Made by a program: the position numbers and the translations under genes. Positions 374 to 892 of a stretch of 64,000 bases of DNA are shown piece after piece (position 1 is the stretch's first letter; each line of letters begins with the position of its first letter). Origin of the DNA: the human T2T-CHM13v2.0 reference genome, Homo sapiens. Below the pieces are notes generated by a model. The model searched no databases. It saw only the letters and a list, made by a program, of their open reading frames with translations, and was not told the origin of the DNA. The stretch lies in assembly GCF_009914755.1 (NCBI RefSeq), contig NC_060945.1; one strand, written 5' to 3'.

Positions 374-892
374 TGTTACGGGGGGTGGGGGGTCCTTGCT
401 CCCAGAGCTCCCAAGATGGTGGTGGGCCACTTCCAAGATGGCGGCAAGCCTCGTGTTCTCTGACCTGGGGTTCTTGGCCTCACGAATTCCAAGGAATGGA
501 ATCTTGGGCCATGCGGTGAGTGTTATAGCTCTATTAGAAGCTGTGGGTCATGGGAGAGAACCGTGGAAGCCAGTGACTAGTGTTTAGCTCGATTAGGATG
601 AACCCAGGCACTTAGCCATGCAGGAACAATGGCGAGCCTTTAGCCTGATTGGAAGTGGCAATGGGCGCCTCACTGGATCAGGAGCACAGCAGATACTCTG
701 CCGGATCTGGAGGAATGGAAGTCAGCGGCGGGTCTGCGATGGTGGCAAACAGCAGTGGTGGACGGTGAGTGAAAGCTCAGCTCGAGCCGTAACAAACACG
801 GACCAGAAGAGTGCAGTTGCAAGATTTAATAGAGTGAAATAGAGTGAAAACAGAGCTCCCATACAAAGGGAGGGGTCCCAAAGAGGGTTGCC
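374..892 (-). mobile_element. LTR17 R-U5 only (5' end of a HERV-W processed pseudogene)
   Basis: The minus strand starts GGCAACCCTCTTTGGGACCCCTCCCTTTGTATGGGAGCTCTG (start of R), carries ATTAAA at 830-825 and ends ...GTAACA. No U3 sequence is present beyond 892. Confidence 0.88.
682..764 (+). CDS. IGSF5: IGSF5 coding exon 2 (83 nt; [29 protein letters not shown]), derived from antisense LTR17
   Basis: gatcag|GAGCACA acceptor and GACG|gtgagt donor. The phase-1 end joins exon 3 (G|GT TCT). The peptide matches the remembered human IGSF5 N-terminus. Confidence 0.85.

What the first reader, a model, noticed from the sequence alone, without database searches (positions are those of the whole stretch)
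672..772. IGSF5 N-terminus is exonised from the antisense strand of a HERV-W LTR
Seen: the 83-nt exon lies wholly within LTR17 R/U5 in antisense. It has a consensus donor (G|GTGAGT) but an acceptor with no polypyrimidine tract (cactggatcag). The peptide ([28 protein letters not shown]) has no signal-peptide hydrophobic core. Inference: the donor arose by CpG decay of GCGAGC (LTR17 consensus as I remember it) to GTGAGT. The ATG exon (MGQKER) is probably also HERV-W-derived, a few nt before base 1. This would be a lineage-restricted retroviral replacement of a host leader.
Basis: partly seen in the sequence, partly recalled or inferred. Interest (0 to 1): 0.7.

Follow-up and report, generated by a model that had tools for sequence, protein, structure and literature searches.

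The report
Retroviral exons replace IGSF5's dead leader
The annotated start of the human cell-adhesion gene IGSF5 is spliced from the back strand of an old retroviral insert, while the gene's original signal-peptide exon still lies downstream but is broken, so the human protein likely no longer reaches the cell surface as the mouse protein does.

Summary
Exon 682-764 (cag|GAG...ACG|gtgagt) lies antisense inside U5 of a HERV-W element, and the ATG exon ends 8 bases before the window, inside the same element. The element is a 7.2-kb processed pseudogene (R-U5 ... U3-R-polyA), not a free LTR. It is locus 21q22.2, whose overlap with IGSF5 exons 1-2 is already in print (PMC5016936); it is present in apes and absent from rhesus (PMC5775608). 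CpG decay of the donor is supported by 34 other copies. Not found in print: the ancestral signal-peptide exon survives at 12524-12593, with an intact acceptor but a stop at codon 6, a 10-base shortfall and no GT donor, whereas baboon, langur and marmoset models keep it whole. The retroviral peptide is not hydrophobic, and its open frame is inherited (28 of 34 copies), so it needs no selection to explain it. The human branch carries 14 amino-acid changes in 323 columns, the neutral expectation. Best reading: a likely leaderless, decaying IGSF5 kept formally open by chance phase match, not a working retroviral leader. No RNA, ribosome or ape DNA data could be tested.

The parts
1..373 (-). HERV-W internal leader region; primer-binding-site-like stretch directly after the LTR end at 374 (label recalled). 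The same region continues upstream of the window and there holds, antisense, the coding part of RefSeq exon 1 (MGQKE + 2 nt; chr21:38129976-38129992, window -24 to -8; donor AG|GTAAGG)
   Evidence: continuous 83-91% matches to other copies; LTR end motif at 378-361; exon 1; ATG in 10 of 10 other copies that span it, donor GTAGGG in 6 of 10, GTAAG in 1 of 10
374..892 (-). 5' R-U5 of the HERV-W 21q22.2 processed pseudogene: R 892-812 (ATTAAA at 830-825), U5 811-374; no U3
   Evidence: PMC5016936 passages and section 13 part 1
679..681 (+). Acceptor CAG of exon 2, already present in the element
   Evidence: CAG in 33 of 34 other copies; 9 of 17 pyrimidines upstream
682..764 (+). RefSeq exon 2, 83 nt, antisense in U5, encoding (R)[27 protein letters not shown]; ends in phase 1
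   Evidence: same frame without a stop in 28 of 34 other copies (two duplicate rows removed)
765..770 (+). Donor GTGAGT; positions 766 and 770 are CpG sites in most other copies and TpG here
   Evidence: CG/TG/CA = 18/11/4 at 766 and 21/3/9 at 770, of 34
898..909 (+). Candidate target-site duplication, 12 nt; its twin is at window -6303, beside the poly(T) that marks the element's poly(A) tail
   Evidence: the left copy abuts an Alu-like repeat, so its length is uncertain
12524..12593 (+). Broken ancestral signal-peptide exon: intact acceptor (14 of 17 pyrimidines), ATG 12539, [17 protein letters not shown] with TGA at 12554-12556, 10 bases short against the langur read-through, AT at 12594-12595 where a phase-1 GT donor is expected
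   Evidence: tblastn of baboon N-terminus 85% over 34 aa, E 2e-21; single copy in the genome
19997..20314 (+). Exon 3, first Ig domain, phase 1 start; first N-glycosylation sequon lost in human (NAR against NAT/NVT/NLT in relatives)
   Evidence: single copy
33566..33781 (+). Transmembrane exon: 19-residue hydrophobicity 1.45 in human, 1.82-1.95 in other simians, 2.76-3.49 in other mammals; human L>P and A>T inside the helix

Best explanation
Human IGSF5 has lost its ancestral signal-peptide exon, and its annotated first two exons are antisense pieces of an ape-specific HERV-W processed pseudogene whose 33-residue peptide has no hydrophobic core, so the product likely fails to enter the secretory pathway and the gene is likely decaying on the human lineage. 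Steps. (1) Shown or published: a HERV-W RNA was copied in antisense, about 11.6 kb upstream of the leader exon, in the ape ancestor. (2) Shown from copies: the back strand already held an ATG, a GT donor, a CAG acceptor and an open frame; two CpG-to-TpG changes gave the second donor. (3) Shown: exon 2 ends in phase 1 and so joins exon 3 in frame. If joined to the old leader exon instead, the retroviral frame would overlap the old ATG out of frame and stop near 12595. (4) Shown: the old leader carries a stop, a 10-base shortfall and no donor. (5) Inferred: transcripts, mainly in trophoblast, skip the dead exon and give at most a cytosolic, unglycosylated or unstable protein. The order of steps 2-4 is not known.
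For: Broken leader at 12524-12593, intact in baboon, langur and marmoset models. No second copy of the leader region or of exon 3. N-terminal hydrophobicity 0.55 against 2.5 or more in 84 of 89 orthologue models. Open frame inherited: 28 of 34 copies, and the same peptide read from unrelated copies (P0140, P0145, P0147). Human and orangutan differ at 3 of 28 residues in the new exon. Human branch 14 changes in 323 columns (4.3%) against 6 for orangutan and 7 for the baboon line; neutral simulation gives 3.6-4.5%, and human against baboon p = 0.001-0.01. Human-branch losses include a sequon and a proline in the membrane helix. [quoted passage not shown]
Against: Exons 3-9 are an open frame with canonical AG/GT at every junction, and the C-terminal TTVV motif is kept, while the disabling lesions all sit in a 70-nt exon. 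That pattern would also arise if the body were still under selection. Under neutrality the chance of no nonsense change is 0.53-0.63 (indels and splice sites not simulated, so the true chance is lower). Human 14 against orangutan 6 is not significant (p = 0.115). The rate test rests on recalled divergence times and distances, and on predicted models that stand for 90% clusters. An antibody study saw one band of predicted size (PMC3316724 passage). IGSF5 RNA marks fusing cytotrophoblasts (PMC11215163 passage). The human ectodomain made in E. coli self-associates (PMC8037251 passages). SignalP was not run; hydrophobicity is a proxy. Only one human haplotype was seen. The second RefSeq transcript (start -33759) has a structure that I could not see.
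Confidence: 0.6

Rival explanations
1. True co-option: the HERV-W exons give apes a working leaderless IGSF5 (cytosolic, or anchored through the weak helix and Cys-rich tail) in fusing trophoblast, and the old leader was lost because it was no longer needed.
For: Lesions confined to the old leader while exons 3-9 stay open; both donors are closer to consensus than in most other copies; good start context, G at -3 and +4; the orangutan model has the same N-terminus and only 6 changes in 323; fusing-cytotrophoblast marker listed with ERVW-1, ERVV-1 and ERVFRD-1; band of predicted size.
Against: Neutral-level change on the human branch; TpG at +2 arises in 11 of 34 copies without any gene context; Ig domains with disulphides are not expected to fold in the cytosol (general knowledge); the orangutan model may be projected from human.
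Confidence: 0.2
2. A surface form survives by another route: an unannotated substitute leader exon, or membrane insertion without a signal peptide, so that the HERV-W isoform is a side product.
For: ATG 18072 to AGG|GTGAGG at 18114 encodes MLVLLALCGPDFSQ in phase 1, hydrophobicity 3.2; a second RefSeq transcript of unseen structure exists.
Against: The same scan gave 13 such ATG/GT pairs in 20 kb, so chance is likely; no orthologue model begins this way; no good phase-1 donor follows the old leader; the membrane helix is weak.
Confidence: 0.12
3. The 764-to-19997 junction is a rare event captured in one placental cDNA, and the annotation overstates it; the locus makes mostly non-coding RNA.
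For: The only transcript named in what I read is AK092516; weak acceptor; no fragment with the joined N-terminus among the 12 of 53 short hits that I read.
Against: The model is a curated NM_ record; IGSF5 RNA is measured in placenta by array and qPCR (PMC5596874 passages). A full-length joined protein would fall in the P0002 cluster, so the blank is weak.
Confidence: 0.08

Closest known systems
HERV-W locus 21q22.2 overlapping IGSF5 exons 1-2 (Grandi et al. 2016, PMC5016936; orthologue table in Grandi et al. 2018, PMC5775608)
   Same: Same element, antisense orientation, overlap with the first two exons, placental mRNA AK092516, ape-only distribution.
   Different: In the passages and section that I read they give no splice-site origin, no note on the missing signal peptide and no mention of the broken ancestral leader exon.
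LTR-derived alternative first exons and transposon exonisation (examples such as CYP19A1, PTN and the neighbouring B3GALT5 are recalled, not checked)
   Same: Retroelement sequence spliced onto a host gene, placental expression, splice site created by point mutation (CpG decay).
   Different: Here two coding exons come from the antisense strand of a processed pseudogene that lacks the 5' U3 promoter, they supply the ATG, and the host's own leader exon is dead, not merely bypassed.
Mammalian JAM4/IGSF5 (CTX/JAM family type I membrane protein, binds MAGI-1 and LNX1; review PMC9302484 passages)
   Same: Two Ig domains, membrane-proximal cysteines, C-terminal PDZ-type motif, orthologous exons.
   Different: No signal peptide in human; a rewired and much less hydrophobic membrane segment in all simians, weakest in human.
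Unitary pseudogenes of the human or ape lineage (class recalled)
   Same: Single-copy gene with a disabling lesion that relatives lack, and a raised substitution rate.
   Different: The annotated frame is unbroken because foreign exons supply an in-frame start, so screens for stops and frameshifts in annotated coding sequence would miss it.

Membership tests
HERV-W (LTR17/HERV17) | LTR closely related to that of the syncytin-1 provirus | tested here: met
   91% over 463 nt to L027; adjacent frame matches syncytin-1, E 1e-201
HERV-W processed pseudogene | 5' LTR is R-U5 only; 3' LTR is U3-R followed by poly(A) | tested here: met
   Match ends at 892 where full LTRs run on into U3; U3-R at window -6267 to about -5937 with poly(T) on the + strand
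HERV-W processed pseudogene | Target-site duplication | tested here: inconclusive
   12-nt match at -6303 and 898, but low in complexity, 5 nt from the element end and next to an Alu-like repeat
Exonised retroelement | Exon wholly inside the element with canonical AG/GT, in frame with host exons | tested here: met
Exonised retroelement | Junction is used in RNA at appreciable level | not testable with these tools
   Only the RefSeq model and the published mention of AK092516
Co-opted (exapted) retroviral coding exon | Peptide is translated and under purifying selection | tested here: inconclusive
   3 of 28 residues differ from orangutan; frame open in 28 of 34 unrelated copies; no DNA for dN/dS, no ribosome data
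JAM/CTX type I membrane protein | N-terminal signal peptide | tested here: not met
   Hydrophobicity 0.55 against 2.5 or more in 84 of 89 orthologues; proxy only, SignalP not run
JAM/CTX type I membrane protein | Two Ig domains | tested here: met
   Pfam Ig families on the orangutan and baboon proteins; human differs from orangutan at 10 of 198 ectodomain residues
JAM/CTX type I membrane protein | Hydrophobic single-pass helix | tested here: inconclusive
   1.45 in human, 1.82-1.95 in simians, 2.76-3.49 in other mammals
Unitary pseudogene | Disabling lesions in an ancestral coding exon, no intact paralogue | tested here: met
Unitary pseudogene | No functional protein; lesions fixed in the species | not testable with these tools
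   One haplotype; one antibody band reported

The most novel reading that the evidence does not exclude
Apes, or the African apes and humans, swapped a cell-surface junction protein for a leaderless, retrovirus-started form: HERV-W antisense exons took over the start of IGSF5, masked or outlived the signal-peptide exon, and now drive a translated intracellular IGSF5 in fusing trophoblast under the same control as syncytin-1.
Probability: 0.2. Interest if true: 0.8.

Novelty: new member of a known kind. Interest (0 to 1): 0.58.

Why it matters
Human IGSF5 is cited as a tight-junction adhesion protein on the strength of mouse JAM4 work, for example in asthma genetics (PMC9078008) and trophoblast studies (PMC9280037), and it is among the genes raised in trisomy-21 placenta (PMC5596874). 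If the human gene has no signal peptide, that transfer is unsafe, and mouse models of chromosome 21 dosage carry a surface protein that humans may lack. It is also a clean case of a gene loss hidden by an in-frame retroviral start, which screens for broken reading frames would miss, and it can be tested with public RNA, ribosome and ape genome data.

Tried and rejected
Rejected: solitary LTR or full provirus (no 5' U3, poly(A) tail); exon reaching into R; a new acceptor (CAG in 33 of 34 copies); the open frame as a sign of selection; an intact duplicate elsewhere in the genome; a second, mammal-like transmembrane exon hidden in the window (for four of five queries the best hit is the annotated exon itself, for the fifth a weak low-complexity match); rescue of the old leader by a nearby phase-1 donor (best phase-1 sites match 5 of 9). 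The upstream ATG at 12491 used by the baboon and marmoset models looks like read-through of the polypyrimidine tract, and it runs into the same stop. No tRNA genes. Protein searches could not separate ape species: only one cluster of 33 members carried the retroviral N-terminus, and its members were not listed. The original JAM4 paper (PMC156145) was not held, so what it says of the human gene is unseen. Earlier scan findings were not available. Ten paper searches found no report of the broken leader; subscription journals are largely missing, and one search was uninformative (none of its 20 listed papers held IGSF5). The supplements of PMC5016936 held only 2,545 characters of text, so its locus tables were not seen.

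Full report
Observation. The window reads cactggatcag|GAG at 671-684 and ACG|GTGAGT at 762-770. With the annotated exons the frame is open for 407 codons and begins [45 protein letters not shown].

The element. Bases 1-892 match many places in the genome at 83-91% (40 of 1052 candidates scored). The LTR part is 91% identical over 463 nt to locus L027, whose adjacent frame matches syncytin-1 in the PDB, so this is HERV-W on the minus strand. The match stops at 892, where complete LTRs run on into U3. A U3-R copy with a poly(A) tail lies at window -6267 to about -5937. The element is therefore a processed pseudogene of about 7.2 kb; a 12-nt duplication candidate is uncertain. R spans 892-812, so exon 2 is wholly in U5. 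Grandi 2016 (PMC5016936; passages and section 13 part 1 read) lists it as pseudogene 21q22.2, overlapping IGSF5 exons 1-2 in antisense, with placental mRNA AK092516. [quoted passage not shown] The overlap and the age are thus known.

Origin of the splice signals. I compared 34 distinct other copies: the loci returned for the best hits, with two duplicate rows and the self matches dropped. The acceptor CAG is present in 33 of 34. At donor +2 the copies have C 22, T 11, A 1; at +6 C 30, T 4; both sites are followed by G in most copies and show the CG/TG/CA pattern of CpG decay; GTGAGT occurs in 2 of 34. GT at +1+2 is in 11 of 34 copies, so such donors arise often. For exon 1, the ATG is in 10 of 10 copies that span it and the donor is GTAGGG in 6 of 10, against GTAAGG here. 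The exon-2 frame has no stop in 28 of 34 copies, and unrelated records carry the same antisense peptide (P0140, P0145, P0147). The open frame is inherited from the element.

The ancestral leader. A search with exon 3 returned 99 relatives. Of 89 models that start with Met and have at least 15 residues before the Ig domain, 84 have an 8-residue hydrophobicity of 2.5 or more; the orangutan model, which has the retroviral N-terminus, is among the five that do not. The human value is 0.55. Baboon, langur and marmoset models carry ME(V/M)Q..(K/S)..VLT(V/M)LV(V/I)LAGLA before the Ig domain. This maps to window 12491-12592 at 85% (baboon, E 2e-21). The human copy has an intact acceptor at 12523 (14 of 17 pyrimidines), ATG at 12539 and then [20 protein letters not shown] where relatives have Tyr or Cys, the residues GLA missing, 11 bases where the langur read-through has 21, and AT at 12594-12595 where a phase-1 GT is expected. 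The position of the old donor is inferred from proteins, not from monkey DNA, and the shortfall and the donor loss may be one event. The region and exon 3 are each single-copy. If exon 2 were joined to 12524, the retroviral frame would run one base out of step with the old ATG and stop near 12595; skipping to 19997 keeps the frame because both ends are phase 1.

State of the rest of the gene. In 323 gap-free columns shared by human, orangutan, baboon and marmoset, parsimony gives 14 changes to the human branch, 6 to orangutan, 4 to the ape stem and 7 to the baboon line, with 5 ambiguous. A neutral simulation at 1.2-1.5% background divergence (recalled values) gives 3.6-4.5% amino-acid change; the human branch shows 4.3%. 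Human against baboon is p = 0.001-0.01 for recalled split times; human against orangutan is p = 0.115. Human changes include loss of the first glycosylation sequon and Leu to Pro in the membrane helix, whose hydrophobicity is 1.45 against 1.82-1.95 in other simians and 2.76-3.49 in other mammals. Against decay: exons 3-9 are open with canonical junctions and end in TTVV, and the neutral chance of no stop is 0.53-0.63 before indels are counted.

Expression in print. IGSF5 is listed among fusing-cytotrophoblast genes with ERVW-1, ERVV-1 and ERVFRD-1 (PMC11215163, one passage), rises with ERVW-1 in a trophoblast model (PMC9280037, passages) and is about twofold up in trisomy-21 placenta (PMC5596874, passages). 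One antibody study gave a band of predicted size (PMC3316724, passages). That argues that some protein exists; a band without a size shift also fits an unglycosylated product, which is my inference. The ectodomain made in E. coli self-associates (PMC8037251, passages), which says nothing about targeting. Other passages read: PMC9078008, PMC7730772 (an unverified intron shift against green monkey), PMC9302484, PMC8104966.

Mechanism and odds. Most likely (0.6), the antisense strand of the insert offered a ready ATG, splice sites and an open frame in the right phase, CpG decay sharpened the donor, and the old leader died; the product lacks a route into the ER, and the gene is drifting on the human lineage. 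Real co-option of a leaderless form gets 0.2, a surviving surface form by another leader 0.12, and a rare junction 0.08. The promoter is unidentified: the 5' U3 is absent, and the remaining U3 lies 6 kb upstream and points away from the gene.

Novelty. Ten searches found the overlap but no report of the broken leader or of the missing signal peptide; the library lacks most subscription papers, and the original JAM4 paper was not held. Both ingredients, retroelement exonisation and lineage-specific gene decay, are known kinds. The case is a new member with a practical consequence for how human IGSF5 is read. Interest 0.58.

Noticed in passing
window 33566-33781: The transmembrane exon is rewired in all simians ([13 protein letters not shown]... 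against AIVLLAVSFSLLLILIIVLIIIF in other mammals), with a longer Cys-rich tail; the simian stem is the longest internal branch of the protein tree. This predates the HERV-W insertion.
   Followed up: partly
window 18072-18114: ATG ... AGG|GTGAGG encoding MLVLLALCGPDFSQ, phase 1, hydrophobic: a possible cryptic substitute leader 1.9 kb before exon 3, but one of 13 such pairs in 20 kb.
   Followed up: partly
window 12037-12350: Antisense Alu-like repeat about 175 bases upstream of the old leader's acceptor (family label recalled).
   Followed up: no
L009 3360-3700: An Alu-like repeat abuts the poly(A) end of the HERV-W element in the same orientation and blurs the target-site duplication.
   Followed up: partly
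L012 6241 (window -33759): The annotated start of the second IGSF5 transcript falls inside an Alu-like repeat, with no CpG-rich kilobase (observed/expected above 0.45) anywhere from -40000 to +22000.
   Followed up: no
window 55747-55842: The C-terminal motif is TTVV in human and orangutan, TIVV in three colobine models, ATSV/ATLV/TTLV in New World monkeys and (V/A)T(L/I)V in other mammals: PDZ binding may be lost in some monkeys.
   Followed up: no
L003, L038: Two other HERV-W copies carry the same G|GTGAGT antisense donor with the CAG acceptor and an 83-nt interval; they are candidates for independent exonisation.
   Followed up: no
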